A DNA stretch of 23,723 nucleotides from a virus. Its lineage: Duplodnaviria; Heunggongvirae; Uroviricota; Caudoviricetes. Each line of letters begins with the position of its first letter. Positions within the stretch are counted from its first letter, which is position 1. Shown here one piece after another: positions 3,563 to 23,723 of the stretch. A model generated the notes under the pieces. It had not been told where the DNA came from, did no database searches, and worked only from the letters and a program-made list of their open reading frames with translations. Location of the stretch: the IMG/VR virus record IMGVR_UViG_2606217111_000003. One strand, written 5' to 3'. The position numbers and the translations under genes are program-made.

Positions 3563-3637
3563 GGGTCAGTCGTATAAAGGTCATTACGGAAGGCTGTTAA
3601 CCTTCTTATCGTGGTTCGAGTCCACGCTGTCCCGCCA
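3563..3637 (+). tRNA. tRNA-like gene, anticodon loop ctGTTaa (Asn-type), non-canonical (one U-U mismatch in acceptor stem, 3-bp D-stem); possibly a degenerate or phage-specific tRNA
   Basis: Hand-folded cloverleaf: acceptor gggtcag/ctgtccc, perfect anticodon stem gaagg/ccttc, T-arm cgtgg-ttcgagt-ccacg, 3' gCCA encoded. Confidence 0.5.
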
Positions 3638-3642
3638 AATAT

Positions 3643-3718
3643 GCTGGTTTAGCTCCAATGGTAGAGCGGTCGCCTTGTAAGCGAATGGGTAGCGGTTCAA
3701 GTCCGTTAACCAGCACCA
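3643..3718 (+). tRNA. tRNA gene, anticodon TGT (Thr-type)
   Basis: Hand-folded cloverleaf: perfect acceptor gctggtt/aaccagc, D-arm gctc-caatggta-gagc, anticodon loop ctTGTaa, T-arm agcgg-ttcaagt-ccgtt, discriminator A and CCA encoded. Confidence 0.65.
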
Positions 3719-20057: not shown

Positions 20058-21125
20058 ATGACACAGAACTGGATGAGACATTTCGAGCTGCAGCTTGTGG
20101 ACGGGAACGGTCAGGGAATTGAGCTAAGTGATTTCAAAGTCACCTTTACGATCGACTGGTTCAACATCAGCAGCGCGTCCCGGGTAGGGACTATCAAAAT
20201 TTATAACCTCTCGGCAGATACTGTGAACCGAATTACCGGGCAGGAGTTTTCGAAAGTGCGTCTGATTGCGGGTTACGACGGTATCGCGCCGGAGGTGTCG
20301 GCAAGCGATGTCGGGACCGTGCGGGAGGTTGATGCGGCGGACGTGGGCCAGAGTGATGGCCGCAACTACGGACTGATTTTCAGCGGTGAAATTCGCTACT
20401 CGGTCACAGGAAAAGACAGCCCGGTTGATTCCTACGTCCTGATTCAGGCAGCCGATACAGATCTGGCTTTTGCCACCAGTATAACCTCACAGACGCTGGC
20501 TGCCGGTTACACGGTCGCTGATGTGAACCGTGCGCTGATGAAAGACTTCGAAGCCAAAGGTGCGACCGAAGGCCTGACGCCTGAAATGCCTGCTACTGTA
20601 TTCCCCCGGGGGCGGGTACTCTTTGGCATGACGCGGCATCTTATGGATAATGTAGCCGGGCAATGTGGCGCAACATGGCAATTCGTGGATGGTCAACGCC
20701 AGATGGTGGCGAATAATGAATATGTTCACGAAGCGATTGTGCTCAACAGCGCTACCGGGCTTATTGGCATGCCGCAGCAGACTATCGGTAACGGCGTAAA
20801 CGTCCGCGCGCTTATTAATCCGAACATCCGGGTTAACGGGCTCATTCAACTGGATCAGGCTTCAGTGTATCGTACCGCGTTGTCGAACAACGATATCGCG
20901 ATGGCCGGTGGGCAGATCACCGACCAGAACACGGACGGAAATATTACGCTAAGCGGCACCACATCGCAGCCTGCCAGCATCGCAACGGATGGCGTTTATA
21001 TTGTGCGTGGGATTATGTACACTGGCGACACAAGGGGGCAGGCGTGGTACATGGATATGATGTGTGAAGCACGTGGCGCGGCTGATCTACTTTCGTCCTC
21101 AGCGCAGCAAAGGATTTATTCATGA
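20058..21125 (+). CDS. Tail/baseplate-associated protein (hub-like candidate)
   Basis: 355 aa, 2-nt gap from the upstream gene; last high-GC structural gene before the AT-rich island. Confidence 0.55.
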   Translation: MTQNWMRHFELQLVDGNGQGIELSDFKVTFTIDWFNISSASRVGTIKIYNLSADTVNRITGQEFSKVRLIAGYDGIAPEVSASDVGTVREVDAADVGQSDGRNYGLIFSGEIRYSVTGKDSPVDSYVLIQAADTDLAFATSITSQTLAAGYTVADVNRALMKDFEAKGATEGLTPEMPATVFPRGRVLFGMTRHLMDNVAGQCGATWQFVDGQRQMVANNEYVHEAIVLNSATGLIGMPQQTIGNGVNVRALINPNIRVNGLIQLDQASVYRTALSNNDIAMAGGQITDQNTDGNITLSGTTSQPASIATDGVYIVRGIMYTGDTRGQAWYMDMMCEARGAADLLSSSAQQRIYS

Positions 21126-21469
21126 AGCGTATGAAGTTAGTTTTGACAATTTCGTTATTATTTTCTTGTTCAGCAGCTTTTGCTGATTTGCAATGCGGCG
21201 GATATCTACTTCATGCAGCTGATAACGGTTGGACAAAAATCAACGGTGAGCAGGTAACATCACAGAAGATTACGTTTCTTGGTAAGAAAGATGACTGGGA
21301 CAACGTTAAAACTAACATGGGCCTGATGCCTTCTCGCGATGGCAACAATTACGGCTTTGAGTTTGTGAAGCGTAACGGAAAAGCTTTCCTGAACGTCCAG
21401 CTTCTGCAGAACAGCATGGATGCGCCTAAAATCATCGGATCATTCCCTTGTAAAAAGGCGTTACGCTAA
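21122..21469 (+). CDS. Small secreted protein (115 aa) with N-terminal signal peptide, two Cys in the mature part; function unknown
   Basis: MKRMKLVLTISLLFSCSAAFA then polar mature domain; AT-rich; ATGA overlap with the last tail gene. Confidence 0.6.
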   Translation: MKRMKLVLTISLLFSCSAAFADLQCGGYLLHAADNGWTKINGEQVTSQKITFLGKKDDWDNVKTNMGLMPSRDGNNYGFEFVKRNGKAFLNVQLLQNSMDAPKIIGSFPCKKALR

Positions 21470-21506
21470 AGTTTGATGTCAATCTTCCGAGATGAGCGCT
21501 TTAAGG

Positions 21507-21535
21507 TTGACGAGATATTGTTCAAAGTTCACAAT
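21507..21535 (+). promoter_or_regulatory. Candidate sigma-70 promoter (ttgacg, 17-nt spacer, cacaat) upstream of the 257-aa gene
   Basis: Hexamers read directly from sequence, about 30 nt upstream of the ORF start; modest -10 match. Confidence 0.35.
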
Positions 21536-21564
21536 CACAATCCCTTTAGTAAGAGAAATAATCC

Positions 21565-22338
21565 ATGGCGGCAGGCATCCCATTAGAAAAAGCGCAAAAA
21601 TATATTGAACAATTCAATGCGCTTCTATTGGATAGGGAAAGTTTAGATCCCTTCACTGAAAAGAAAATTCGAGAGGAACTTTCTGTCTCTCCAACGCCTG
21701 CTACCAACATTGCACTATCTTATCTGGATGCAATAACCGGAAAGATTGAAAGCGCGTTACGTTATCTCAGGATAAGCCTAGAAGTAAACGATGTAACGTT
21801 GGCAATGCACTATCATCACATTTTAATTAATACATTTAGCTATAATGAACTCAAGGATGTCTATGTCCCGCTGGCAAAGAAGTATCGGACAAAACTCTTT
21901 AGTCACAACGCATACAGTTGGGCGTACCGTTGCGGCGAGCGTGAACAGTTAAAATTTTATATGGAAGAGCACATTAAGCTTCTTTCTGAATCAGAAGGCA
22001 GGAGTAATGCTATGAAGCACAAAGAAGAACTCCTTGCAGAAATGGATAATTTCTATAGCGCCACACAGTGCTCGAAGGAACAGTTCCAGACCTTAGCATC
22101 CATAATCTGGGGCTTGCTAAGTGAATACAAGGCTACGACAGGTTTCGTTCAGCTTAGTGGAAGCGGTTGCTATGTTGTTGATATTAAAAATCTTGAGCCT
22201 AAAACTATTGCCAAAATGAACTTCGACTTGGCTGATAGAGTCTGCGCTGAATCTAAACTGGATGATTGTTCCCTGTTAGCTAGATTTACCTCTCCGCGTC
22301 AGTTGCATACGGGGGTGAGCTACCATGTCGGTAACTAG
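21565..22338 (+). CDS. Hypothetical protein (257 aa), AT-rich island gene; function unknown
   Basis: Long uninterrupted ORF in AT-rich DNA; 14-nt overlap with the downstream 93-aa ORF suggests an operon; no motif I can assign. Confidence 0.6.
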   Translation: MAAGIPLEKAQKYIEQFNALLLDRESLDPFTEKKIREELSVSPTPATNIALSYLDAITGKIESALRYLRISLEVNDVTLAMHYHHILINTFSYNELKDVYVPLAKKYRTKLFSHNAYSWAYRCGEREQLKFYMEEHIKLLSESEGRSNAMKHKEELLAEMDNFYSATQCSKEQFQTLASIIWGLLSEYKATTGFVQLSGSGCYVVDIKNLEPKTIAKMNFDLADRVCAESKLDDCSLLARFTSPRQLHTGVSYHVGN

Positions 22339-22606
22339 CAATCAGATTCTCGATACCGCTCGATTATGTCTGTCTGAAAATATTGAGAGTGGATTTCGAA
22401 GCGCTATCTCAAGGGCGTATTACAGTATGTTACATGAGTCTATTAGCTCACTTACTGCCATACCGCATTTTACCCATGAGCATCACAAAAATACTGTGGG
22501 TTATATGTCAACGCCCTCAGAGTGCAAATCAGAGCCATACCCGACAAATACACTGAAATCCCTAGCTTTCGTACTTCGCCAGTGGCGGGATGCTAGAAAT
22601 GAATAG
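22325..22606 (+). CDS. Hypothetical protein, 3'-truncated by IS2 (93 aa as encoded; stop codon TAG is the first three bases of the IS2 left inverted repeat); contains an R-x6-H segment (SRAYYSMLH)
   Basis: ORF overlaps the 257-aa gene and runs without a stop into the IS2 end at 22604. Confidence 0.5.
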   Translation: MSVTSNQILDTARLCLSENIESGFRSAISRAYYSMLHESISSLTAIPHFTHEHHKNTVGYMSTPSECKSEPYPTNTLKSLAFVLRQWRDARNE

Positions 22607-22817
22607 ACTGGCCCCCTGAATCTCCAGACAACCAATATCACTTAAATAAGTGATAGTCTTAATACTAGTTTTTAGACTAGTCATTGGAGAACAGATGATT
22701 GATGTCTTAGTAGACTGGCCCCCTGAATCTCCAGACAACCAATATCACTTAAATAAGTGATAGTCTTAATACTAGTTTTTAGACTAGTCATTGGAGAACA
22801 GATGATTGATGTCTTAG
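22604..22817 (+). repeat. Perfect tandem direct repeat, 2 x 107 bp, each unit the IS2 left inverted repeat plus leader and first 16 nt of insC
   Basis: Units 22604-22710 and 22711-22817 are identical base for base; canonical IS2 carries this segment once. Confidence 0.9.
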
Positions 22818-23167
22818 GGCCGGAGAAACGCAGACGGCGTACCACACAGGAAAAGATCGCAATTGTTCAGCAGAGCTTTGAACCGGGGATGACGGTCTCC
22901 CTCGTTGCCCGGCAACATGGTGTAGCAGCCAGCCAGTTATTTCTCTGGCGTAAGCAATACCAGGAAGGAAGTCTTACTGCTGTCGCCGCCGGAGAACAGG
23001 TTGTTCCTGCCTCTGAACTTGCTGCCGCCATGAAGCAGATTAAAGAGCTCCAGCGCCTGCTCGGCAAGAAAACGATGGAAAATGAACTCCTCAAAGAAGC
23101 CGTTGAATATGGACGGGCAAAAAAGTGGATAGCGCACGCGCCCTTATTGCCCGGGGATGGGGAGTAA
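22802..23167 (+). CDS. insC: IS2 transposase OrfA (InsC, HTH DNA-binding protein)
   Basis: 121 aa, [56 protein letters not shown]... matches IS2 InsC. Confidence 0.95.
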
Positions 23168-23723
23168 GCTTAGTCAGCCGTTGTCTCCGGGTGTCGCGTG
23201 CGCAGTTGCACGTCATTCTCAGACGAACCGATGACTGGATGGATGGCCGCCGCAGTCGTCACACTGATGATACGGATGTGCTTCTCCGTATACACCATGT
23301 TATCGGAGAGCTGCCCACGTATGGTTATCGTCGGGTATGGGCGCTGCTTCGCAGACAGGCAGAACTTGATGGTATGCCTGCGATCAATGCCAAACGTGTT
23401 TACCGGATCATGCGCCAGAATGCGCTGTTGCTTGAGCGAAAACCTGCTGTACCGCCATCGAAACGGGCACATACAGGCAGAGTGGCTGTGAAAGAAAGTA
23501 ATCAGCGATGGTGCTCTGACGGGTTCGAGTTCCGCTGTGATAACGGAGAAAAACTGCGAGTCACGTTCGCGCTGGACTGCTGTGACCGTGAGGCACTGCA
23601 CTGGGCGGTCACTACGGGCGGCTTCAACAGTGAAACAGTACAGGACGTCATGCTGGGAGCGGTGGAACGCCGCTTCGGCAACGAGCTTCCGGCGTCTCCA
23701 GTAGAGTGGCTGACGGATAATGG
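23125..23723 (+). CDS. insD: IS2 transposase OrfB (InsD, DDE catalytic domain), partial; expressed as an OrfAB fusion by -1 frameshift at aaaaaag (23119-23125)
   Basis: From GTG 23125 in the -1 frame: [43 protein letters not shown]...; runs to the window edge. Confidence 0.9.

What the first reader, a model, noticed from the sequence alone, without database searches (positions are those of the whole stretch)
22325..22606. 93-aa ORF carries an R-x6-H segment in a predicted helix, weakly reminiscent of HEPN-type RNase motifs
The segment SRAYYSMLHESISSL places Arg and His six residues apart, within the R-x(4-6)-H spacing of HEPN active sites. The protein is small and overlaps an upstream partner gene, as in HEPN-containing two-gene modules. 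This is weak evidence, since a single short motif can occur by chance and the protein is truncated.
Basis: inference. Interest (0 to 1): 0.45.

Follow-up and report, generated by a model that had tools for sequence, protein, structure and literature searches.

The report
IS2-broken prophage HEPN toxin-like gene
The small ORF is a real gene of the HEPN ribonuclease-fold family, the downstream half of a two-gene prophage cargo module that resembles a toxin-antitoxin or phage-defence pair.

Summary
ORF 22325-22606 encodes SRAYYSMLHESISSL with R30-x6-H37 in a helix, overlaps the upstream gene by 14 nt, and is truncated. IS2 sits after codon 93 and supplies the stop codon. The motif itself carries no information: 62% of shuffles of the peptide contain R-x(4-6)-H.

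It belongs to the AF0298-like "HEPN-T" branch. That branch lacks Rx4-6H and keeps R91-x3-D95-Y96 plus a histidine (H54) in the helix-2/3 insert. These align with the proven catalytic H64/R122 of the retron-Kva2 HEPN RNase. H37 is lost in two of four sub-branches.

The partner is a 257-aa TPR-like protein, not a nucleotidyltransferase. The pair moves as one unit among phage accessory-gene (cargo) slots, including a P2-type defence hotspot.

My reading is an uncharacterised toxin-antitoxin or abortive-infection module, inactivated here. Interest is modest.

The parts
21565..22338 (+). Upstream partner gene, 257 aa, intact. It has an N-terminal TPR-like helical solenoid (helices 7-139), a long helical hairpin (146-187) and a small C-terminal alpha/beta domain. 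I take it as the candidate antitoxin or sensor.
22325..22603 (+). First 93 codons of a 131-codon AF0298-like HEPN-T gene. This part covers core helices 1-2, the insert carrying H54, and most of helix-3 up to R91-N92-E93. D95, Y96 and helix-4 are missing.
22409..22453 (+). It is the SRAYYxxYH signature of helix-2, a subfamily hallmark and not the canonical motif position.
22484..22486 (+). [quoted passage not shown] It aligns with catalytic H64 of the retron-Kva2 HEPN.
   Evidence: At least 90% conserved in A4. Kept in 66 of 72 genomic loci across four partner classes. Alignment; literature.
22595..22603 (+). Codons R91-N92-E93, the start of the family's invariant R-x3-D-Y motif at the canonical HEPN motif position. 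The motif is cut here by the IS2 insertion.
   Evidence: R91, D95 and Y96 are invariant. R91 aligns with catalytic R122 of the Kva2 HEPN. Junction read.
22325..22338 (+). 14-nt overlap between the partner's 3' end and the HEPN start, which suggests translational coupling.
   Evidence: Sequence. In the 19 genomic loci of the same partner class the upstream ORF ends within about -17 to +13 nt of the HEPN start.
22604..23723 (+). IS2, running off the window end, with its terminal 107 nt duplicated in tandem (22604-22710 and 22711-22817). The IS3-family orfA (HTH_Tnp_1) runs about 22801-23167. This is the disrupting element and not part of the module.
   Evidence: Thousands of copies exist in E. 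coli genomes. The IS2/HEPN junction is absent from all 5,426 complete E. coli genomes.

Best explanation
The ORF is the 5' 71% of a gene for a small single-domain HEPN protein of the AF0298-like 'HEPN-T' (PF05168/UPF0332) branch. It forms a translationally coupled two-gene cassette with an upstream 257-aa TPR-like protein. The cassette is accessory cargo of temperate phages. Here it sits in a variable slot between the baseplate-hub region and the spike gene of a prophage.

Most likely mechanism (inferred). The HEPN protein dimerises and acts as an RNase toxin or effector. [quoted passage not shown] The partner binds it through its conserved C-terminal alpha/beta domain and keeps it silent. The variable TPR part could couple release to a trigger such as infection by another phage, giving abortive infection or superinfection exclusion.

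R30 and H37 lie in helix-2. They are a subfamily signature and at most auxiliary.

In this window an IS2 insertion after codon 93 removes D95, Y96 and helix-4, so the effector is almost certainly dead while the partner gene stays intact.

Shown: the fold, family membership, residue conservation, gene pairing, mobility of the pair, and the truncation. Inferred: RNase activity, which residues are catalytic, the toxin/antitoxin roles, and the defence function.
For: Fold and family:
- phmmer hits PDB 9xbd/9xbc 'HEPN domain-containing protein'.
- A 67-member profile hits 9xbd at 5.4e-15 and 2hsb 'UPF0332 protein AF0298' at 4.7e-9.
- 50 of 67 relatives hit Pfam PF05168.

Active site:
- R25, R30, Y32, Y33, R91, D95 and Y96 are invariant; H37 and H54 are kept in at least 90%.
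- Across four partner classes H54, R91, D95 and Y96 persist, while H37 does not.
- PMC3710099 describes this configuration for AF0298-like HEPN-T: the motif His is absent, the Arg is kept, and an alternative His comes from the helix-2/3 insert.
- In the retron-Kva2 HEPN, which also lacks Rx4-6H, H64 and R122 are required for toxicity and defence. [quoted passage not shown] In the profile alignment H64 falls on H54 and R122 (IVRGIVDY) falls on R91.

Module:
- The 14-nt overlap.
- The partner family co-occurs with the HEPN in Enterobacterales, Aeromonas and several beta- and gamma-proteobacteria.
- Sister HEPNs sit downstream of a classical MNT nucleotidyltransferase (PF01909) or other partners.

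Mobility and cargo status:
- The same pair is found in a myovirus-type baseplate slot.
- It is found in a lambda-like tail module and ahead of the tape-measure gene of a Klebsiella phage.
- In a P2-like Vibrio phage it lies between the portal gene and gpA. That is the P2 old/tin defence hotspot (PMC9122126).
- Only 27 of 353 E. coli prophages with these flanks carry the pair. Others carry different cargo there, for example a YafO-family toxin pair.
- A hairpin terminator follows the intact gene.

Inactivation. All 27 other E. coli copies are uninterrupted.
Against: - No experiment exists for this family. PADLOC, Pfam and NCBIfam models do not recognise either protein, and both PHROG families are 'unknown function'.
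- The link to the Kva2 HEPN is weak: whole-sequence E 0.0099, and the second aligned stretch is not significant on its own.
- The canonical catalytic His is absent, so the protein could be non-catalytic.
- I could not obtain model coordinates, so I did not check whether H54 and R91 (or R30 and H37) lie close together.
- The promoter-like sites upstream of the partner are no more frequent than in shuffled sequence.
- Position inside a tail-gene cluster would also fit a phage-structural or assembly role.
- No trigger or target is known.
Confidence: 0.6

Rival explanations
1. One reading: a canonical HEPN RNase whose catalytic dyad is the R30-x6-H37 pair in the SRAYYSMLH segment.
For: R30 and H37 are invariant in the close family and widely kept in the 67-member set. 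H37 is kept in 18 of 19 loci with the TPR-type partner and in 8 of 8 Roseateles-type loci. In a helix, i and i+7 lie on the same face. PMC3710099 notes that helix-2 residues can lie next to the active site.
Against: The canonical motif lies at the end of helix-3, not in helix-2. H37 is C/N/I/W in 31 of 34 loci of the largest partner class, Y in 11 of 11 MNT-partnered loci, Y in 9xbd and L in the Kva2 HEPN. R30 is T in AF0298. R-x(4-6)-H occurs in 62% of shuffles of the peptide. In the related retron HEPN the validated catalytic residues map to H54 and R91 instead.
Confidence: 0.07
2. A non-catalytic HEPN-fold protein that binds RNA, nucleotides or protein and serves the phage itself together with the TPR protein. 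Possible roles are regulator, assembly factor or chaperone of the tail/baseplate, rather than toxin or defence.
For: The canonical His is missing. The pair sits inside tail or baseplate clusters in three different phage backbones. TPR proteins are typical scaffolds. PMC3710099 lists inactive HEPN domains used as binding modules.
Against: The pair is present in only 27 of 353 otherwise similar E. coli prophages, and the same slot holds unrelated cargo including a YafO toxin pair. In the Vibrio phage the pair lies outside the structural genes, in the P2 old/tin hotspot. A set of polar residues (R25, R30, H54, R91, D95, Y96) is strictly conserved across very divergent relatives that have unrelated partners, which points to chemistry rather than a phage-specific contact. 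Sister HEPNs pair with MNT as in toxin-antitoxin systems.
Confidence: 0.15
3. An offensive or counter-defence module: the phage uses the HEPN RNase during its own lytic cycle (host shut-off or destruction of a host defence RNA), and the TPR protein acts as a timing inhibitor.
For: The pair is co-oriented with, and embedded in, late structural operons, so it would be transcribed late in the lytic cycle. The prophage also carries its own tRNA-Asn and tRNA-Thr genes.
Against: Nothing specific supports it. A terminator follows the pair and there are weak promoter-like sites of its own. The hotspot context, next to other toxin-antitoxin-like cargo, favours lysogen-expressed accessory genes. The pair is dispensable in most relatives.
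Confidence: 0.1

Closest known systems
AF0298-like HEPN-T proteins (Pfam PF05168, UniProt UPF0332; structures 2hsb and 9xbd/9xbc)
   Different: The E. coli protein itself falls below Pfam's detection (no hit at E <= 10). Classical members are paired with MNT nucleotidyltransferases, mostly in archaea and thermophiles. This subfamily has E21, R25 and R30 conserved as well, and sits in phages of proteobacteria with a TPR-like partner.
HEPN-MNT toxin-antitoxin systems (HepT/MntA of Shewanella SO_3166/3165; Aphanizomenon HEPN-MNT)
   Different: The partner here has no nucleotidyltransferase fold or conserved catalytic residues, so neutralisation by AMPylation is not expected. The RX4HXY motif is replaced by R-x3-D-Y, and the HEPN belongs to the HEPN-T clade rather than the DUF86/HepT clade.
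Type IX retron (Retron-Kva2) HEPN effector
   Same: It lacks Rx4-6H. It has a His on the third helix and an Arg in an R-x3-D-Y context on the fourth (H64, R122). These align with H54 and R91 here. They were shown to be essential for toxicity and defence, forming a trans active site in the dimer, and the RNase cleaves rRNA and tRNA. It also has the xRxYYaxF helix-2 signature.
   Different: The sequence link is marginal (E 0.0099). The retron effector is 174 aa and is controlled by an RT-msDNA-WH complex. No reverse transcriptase, ncRNA or winged-helix partner is present here.
Lactococcal AbiV
   Same: [quoted passage not shown] From my own knowledge, it is an abortive-infection protein (Haaber et al. 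2008-2010).
   Different: No PADLOC AbiV-model hit at E <= 1. AbiV is a longer, single-gene system with no TPR partner.

Membership tests
HEPN superfamily, AF0298-like HEPN-T branch (PF05168/UPF0332) | [quoted passage not shown] | tested here: met
HEPN superfamily, AF0298-like HEPN-T branch (PF05168/UPF0332) | Significant sequence or profile similarity to family members | tested here: met
   The single sequence has no Pfam hit but hits 9xbd at E 0.002. The family profile hits 9xbd at 5.4e-15 and 2hsb at 4.7e-9. 50 of 67 relatives match PF05168, best 9.4e-9.
HEPN superfamily, AF0298-like HEPN-T branch (PF05168/UPF0332) | Canonical Rx4-6H at the end of helix-3 | tested here: not met
   That position reads R91-N-E-A-D95-Y96 with no His. 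This is the known exception that defines the AF0298-like subgroup, so it does not exclude membership of that subgroup.
HEPN superfamily, AF0298-like HEPN-T branch (PF05168/UPF0332) | Arg of the motif retained, plus an alternative conserved His in the helix-2/3 insert | tested here: met
   R91 is invariant. H54 is kept in at least 90% of 67 relatives and in 66 of 72 genomic loci.
HEPN superfamily, AF0298-like HEPN-T branch (PF05168/UPF0332) | Ribonuclease activity | not testable with these tools
   No biochemical data exist for this family. The only support is the analogy to the retron-Kva2 HEPN.
HEPN-MNT type II/VII toxin-antitoxin | Upstream partner is a minimal nucleotidyltransferase (GSx10DxD, PF01909/PF18765) | tested here: not met
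   No Pfam hit. The model is a TPR-like solenoid plus a small alpha/beta domain. No invariant residues in 20 homologues. The MNT partner occurs only in the Pseudanabaena sister group.
HEPN-MNT type II/VII toxin-antitoxin | HEPN gene downstream of, and tightly coupled to, the partner gene | tested here: met
   14-nt overlap. The arrangement is conserved in 75 of 76 loci that have a full ORF.
Type IX retron effector module | Adjacent reverse transcriptase, ncRNA and winged-helix protein | tested here: not met
   The neighbours are baseplate and spike genes. Rfam finds only two tRNAs in the window.
Known anti-phage defence systems (PADLOC-DB v2) | Match to any model of a catalogued defence protein | tested here: not met
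   No hit at E <= 1 for the HEPN protein, the partner or the 115-aa neighbour. DefensePredictor DS-28 is a different HEPN (canonical RNSVAH motif, opposite gene order).
Functional gene in this window | Complete reading frame, including the R-x3-D-Y motif and helix-4 | tested here: not met
   IS2 is inserted after codon 93 of 131.

The most novel reading that the evidence does not exclude
The TPR-like partner plus AF0298-type HEPN pair is an uncatalogued phage-borne anti-phage (abortive-infection or superinfection-exclusion) system. The TPR protein would both silence the RNase, through a novel C-terminal HEPN-binding domain, and sense an incoming phage component. The RNase would use a non-canonical H54/R91 trans active site. 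The same HEPN chassis would be wired to at least four unrelated upstream controllers: the TPR type, the Roseateles type, a roughly 100-aa type from cyanobacteria, planctomycetes and archaea, and MNT.
Probability: 0.35. Interest if true: 0.55.

Novelty: new variant of a known kind. Interest (0 to 1): 0.35.

Why it matters
If the model is right, three things follow. It would add a compact, widespread HEPN module with a non-MNT controller to the phage-encoded defence and toxin-antitoxin repertoire. It would give a second, much simpler system than type IX retrons for studying the non-canonical His/Arg HEPN active site. It would also flag a cargo hotspot inside the baseplate operon of a common E. 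coli prophage family. On the practical side, the gene is missed by RefSeq annotation in most E. coli genomes that carry it. For this window specifically the biology is ordinary: an accessory toxin-like gene knocked out by an IS element.

Tried and rejected
- Pfam, NCBIfam and PADLOC scans of the full-length HEPN protein and its partner gave nothing.
I used the 89%-identical P0001 as first row instead.
- The search for related loci with the 67-member alignment failed for lack of a conserved stretch. A 16-member subset worked.
- I tested whether the 257-aa ORF upstream of the most distant close-family member (L007) is homologous to the partner. BLASTP gave no significant match. The profile gave only E 4e-5 at 12 bits. 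I leave this open.
- I tested whether the roughly 100-aa partner class from cyanobacteria, planctomycetes and archaea is related to the TPR-type or Roseateles-type partners. hhalign probability was below 1%, so I rejected this.
- I tested whether the partner is a cryptic MNT. Fold and conservation rule it out.
- DefensePredictor DS-28 (HEPN plus a 252-aa protein from E. coli) turned out to be a different family with a canonical RNSVAH motif.
- A DNA-level search of the phage collection found no match. The protein-level search found two phages.
- Literature searches for UPF0332 and for 9XBD found nothing relevant.
- Rfam found no structured RNA near the module.
- I could not retrieve model coordinates, so distances between conserved residues were not measured.

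Full report
**1. What is at the coordinates**

The + strand ORF 22325..22606 (ATG, 93 aa) is present. Residues 29-43 read SRAYYSMLHESISSL, and R30 and H37 are separated by six residues. Its ATG lies 14 nt upstream of the stop codon (22336-22338) of a 257-aa ORF (21565..22338). A Shine-Dalgarno-like GGGGGTGAG sits at 22311-22319.

From 22604 onward the sequence is the end of IS2 (TAGACTGGCCCCC...). IS2's first three bases supply the stop codon. An IS3-family orfA (HTH_Tnp_1) follows. The first 107 nt of the IS are duplicated in perfect tandem.

Megablast finds the same DNA, uninterrupted, in 27 of 5,426 complete E. coli genomes. There the ORF is 131 aa (L001:4926-5321) and is followed by a hairpin terminator. 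No complete E. coli genome has the IS2/ORF junction.

**2. Is the motif more than chance?**

It is not. The peptide has 6 Arg and 5 His, and 62% of 20,000 shuffles contain an R-x(4-6)-H. The motif alone carries no information.

**3. What the protein is**

- The full-length protein has no Pfam, NCBIfam or PADLOC hit.
- phmmer against PDB sequences finds 9xbd/9xbc, 'HEPN domain-containing protein' (E 0.002).
- The close family is small: 29 clusters at 90% identity, from Enterobacterales and Aeromonas. Some sources already label it 'HEPN domain-containing' or 'UPF0332'.
- A profile search of 1.84 billion representative proteins finds 3,170 relatives at E <= 1e-3. The 150 best that were listed are nearly all single-domain proteins of about 115-150 aa. 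They share the signature E..(Y/F)R(N/S)a.SRaYYa.YH ... H ... R..ADY.
- In a 67-member alignment R25, R30, Y32, Y33, R91, D95 and Y96 are invariant, and A12, E21, S29, H37 and H54 are kept in at least 90%.
- That profile hits 9xbd (5.4e-15), 2hsb 'UPF0332 protein AF0298' (4.7e-9) and, weakly, the retron-Kva2 HEPN (0.0099).
- 50 of the 67 relatives match Pfam PF05168 HEPN.
- An AF2 model of the 89%-identical P0001 is confident (pLDDT 89.5, pTM 0.85). It shows helices 5-17, 21-43, two short helices at 51-62, then 74-95 and 105-130.

The protein is therefore a HEPN-fold protein of the AF0298-like branch.

**4. Where the active site should be**

Anantharaman et al. 2013 (PMC3710099) place Rx4-6H at the end of core helix-3. 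For the AF0298-like HEPN-T family and AbiV, they state three things. The His of the motif is typically absent and often replaced by D. The basic residue is retained. [quoted passage not shown]

This matches the present protein. Helix-3 (74-95) ends in R91-N-E-A-D95-Y96, and H54 lies in the insert.

The 2026 preprint on Retron-Kva2 (10.64898/2026.07.14.738597) reports a HEPN effector that lacks Rx4-6H. Its H64 (third helix) and R122 (fourth helix) are each required for toxicity and defence. [quoted passage not shown] In the HMMER alignment, H64 falls on the family's 'sH' (H54 here) and R122 (IVRGIVDY) falls on 'aRneADY' (R91 here). That alignment is statistically weak, so I treat it as corroboration and not proof.

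**5.

Both residues sit in helix-2. I took 72 genomic loci of this HEPN subfamily and grouped them by the type of upstream partner.

| Partner class | Loci keeping H37 | Replacement |
|---|---|---|
| TPR-type | 18 of 19 | L in one locus |
| Roseateles-type | 8 of 8 | none |
| Largest class (cyanobacteria, planctomycetes, archaea) | 3 of 34 | C, N, I, W |
| MNT-partnered | 0 of 11 | Y |

H54 is kept in 66 of the 72 loci, and R91, D95 and Y96 in all 72.

R30 is T in AF0298, and H37 is Y in 9xbd and L in the Kva2 HEPN. R25, S29, R30, Y32 and Y33 were part of the search pattern for these loci, so their constancy in that set is partly built in.

The R-x6-H pair is thus a helix-2 signature of a sub-branch. 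It may be auxiliary, but it is not the HEPN dyad. I could not measure three-dimensional distances because model coordinates are not exposed.

The IS2 insertion falls after R91-N92-E93, inside the real motif. It removes D95, Y96 and helix-4.

**6. The partner and the module**

The 257-aa upstream protein has no Pfam, NCBIfam or PADLOC hit and belongs to PHROG phrog_17809 (function unknown). The HEPN protein is phrog_5176. The partner's family has 40 clusters and the same taxonomic range as the HEPN family.

In 80 genomic loci of the HEPN subfamily, almost every one has a same-strand ORF ending within a few nucleotides of the HEPN start. These upstream ORFs fall into four classes.

| Partner class | Loci | Where found |
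|---|---|---|
| TPR type | 19 (plus L059 by profile) | Enterobacterales, Methylocaldum, Azoarcus, Azonexus, Pararobbsia, Paraburkholderia, Acidovorax |
| Classical MNT (PF01909) | 11 | Pseudanabaena |
| About 100-aa core, unknown | 34 | Cyanobacteria, planctomycetes, Chloroflexi, an Archaeoglobales MAG |
| Roseateles class | 8 | Roseateles |

The C-terminal domain of the TPR-type partner is homologous to that of the Roseateles class (hhalign 92%, E 7e-7). The 100-aa class shows no detectable relation to either.

A constant downstream HEPN with exchangeable upstream controllers, one of which is the established antitoxin MNT, is the pattern of toxin-antitoxin or abortive-infection modules.

**7. 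Genomic setting**

The window is a prophage. It carries lambda P-like replication and NinG genes, tRNA-Asn and tRNA-Thr, lysozyme, portal, capsid, sheath, tape-measure/SLT and baseplate genes.

The pair lies between the baseplate-hub region and the spike gene. Of 353 E. coli genomes that have these flanks, only 27 carry the pair. Others carry a 190-aa ORF plus a YafO-family toxin, a DUF4282 protein, an HMG-box protein and other cargo. So this slot is a cargo hotspot.

The same pair occurs in four other settings:
- The equivalent slot of Enterobacter prophages, at 53% HEPN identity.
- A lambda-like siphovirus tail module.
- Ahead of the tape-measure gene of Klebsiella phage ST405-OXA48phi1.3, where the record splits the open 131-aa frame into two small CDS.
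- Between the portal gene and gpA of a P2-like Vibrio phage. Rousset et al. 2022 identify this locus as the P2 old/tin anti-phage hotspot (PMC9122126).

The pair therefore moves as a unit among phage accessory slots.

**8. Mechanism proposed**

Shown: the HEPN fold and AF0298-like membership, the conserved R91/D95/Y96/H54 set, the tight pairing with a non-enzymatic TPR-like partner, cargo status and mobility, and the IS2 truncation.

Inferred: the HEPN dimer is an RNase with an H54/R91 active site. The partner neutralises it by binding through its C-terminal domain. The TPR part links release to a trigger, most plausibly infection by another phage.

The pattern seen here, a disrupted effector next to an intact upstream gene, is what one expects when a toxin-antitoxin-like module decays. 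With a single case this is only suggestive.

**9. Comparison with known systems and novelty**

The closest known relatives are AF0298/UPF0332 HEPN-T proteins (membership met), HEPN-MNT toxin-antitoxin systems (architecture met, partner not met), the type IX retron HEPN (active-site analogy, context not met) and AbiV (shared alternative His according to PMC3710099, no model hit).

Neither protein is in PADLOC v2. DefensePredictor's DS-28 is unrelated.

The HEPN protein is a new member of a known branch. The pairing with a TPR-type controller in phage cargo slots is, as far as these libraries and searches show, an undescribed variant.

**10. Verdict**

The gene is real but inactivated in this window. 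Interest is modest (0.35). The most novel reading still open is an uncatalogued phage-borne defence module with a non-canonical HEPN active site; I give it about 0.35 probability.

Noticed in passing
window 22604-22817: The terminal 107 nt of the IS2 copy are duplicated in perfect tandem (22604-22710 and 22711-22817), so the element starts with two identical ends. I do not know whether this is an assembly artefact, an aberrant transposition product or an IS2 junction intermediate.
   Followed up: partly
L001:4926-5321 (E. coli 357900) and 26 other complete E. coli genomes; L089:4001-4396 (Klebsiella phage ST405-OXA48phi1.3): RefSeq (PGAP) leaves the intact 131-aa HEPN gene unannotated in most E. 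coli genomes that carry it. Only the partner is listed under the match in 24 of 27, and feature tables I inspected directly (L001, L002) show no CDS there. In the Klebsiella phage record the open 131-aa frame is split into two short CDS.
   Followed up: yes
window about 21470-22606; L091, L092, L093: The slot between the roughly 113-aa gene after the baseplate hub and the spike gene is a cargo hotspot in this prophage family. 353 E. coli genomes share the flanks. The contents vary: the TPR+HEPN pair (27 genomes), a 190-aa ORF plus a YafO-family toxin, DUF4282, an HMG-box protein and others.
   Followed up: partly
window 3563-3637 and 3643-3718 (+): The prophage carries tRNA-Asn(GTT) and tRNA-Thr(TGT) genes between the NinG-like gene and the lysis genes.
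   Followed up: no
window 21122-21469 (+): A 115-aa ORF lies directly upstream of the module (STY1065/STY2022 family, phrog_3443, function unknown). It begins with a signal-peptide and lipobox-like sequence, MKRMKLVLTISLLFSC, and is kept in relatives that carry different cargo. It may be a phage lipoprotein.
   Followed up: no
L023, L025, L028, L034, L035, L046, L060, L070 (Roseateles and Mitsuaria): A second partner family of about 205-274 aa lies upstream of the same HEPN subfamily. It shares only the C-terminal domain of about 95 aa with the TPR-type partner (hhalign prob 92%). This suggests a modular HEPN-binding domain fused to different N-terminal parts.
   Followed up: partly
PDB 9xbd versus 9xbc: The two deposited chains of the closest solved HEPN differ by Y to F in the R-x3-D-Y motif. 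This position equals Y96 here and is also the canonical His position. It suggests the depositors were probing this tyrosine. I found no paper.
   Followed up: partly
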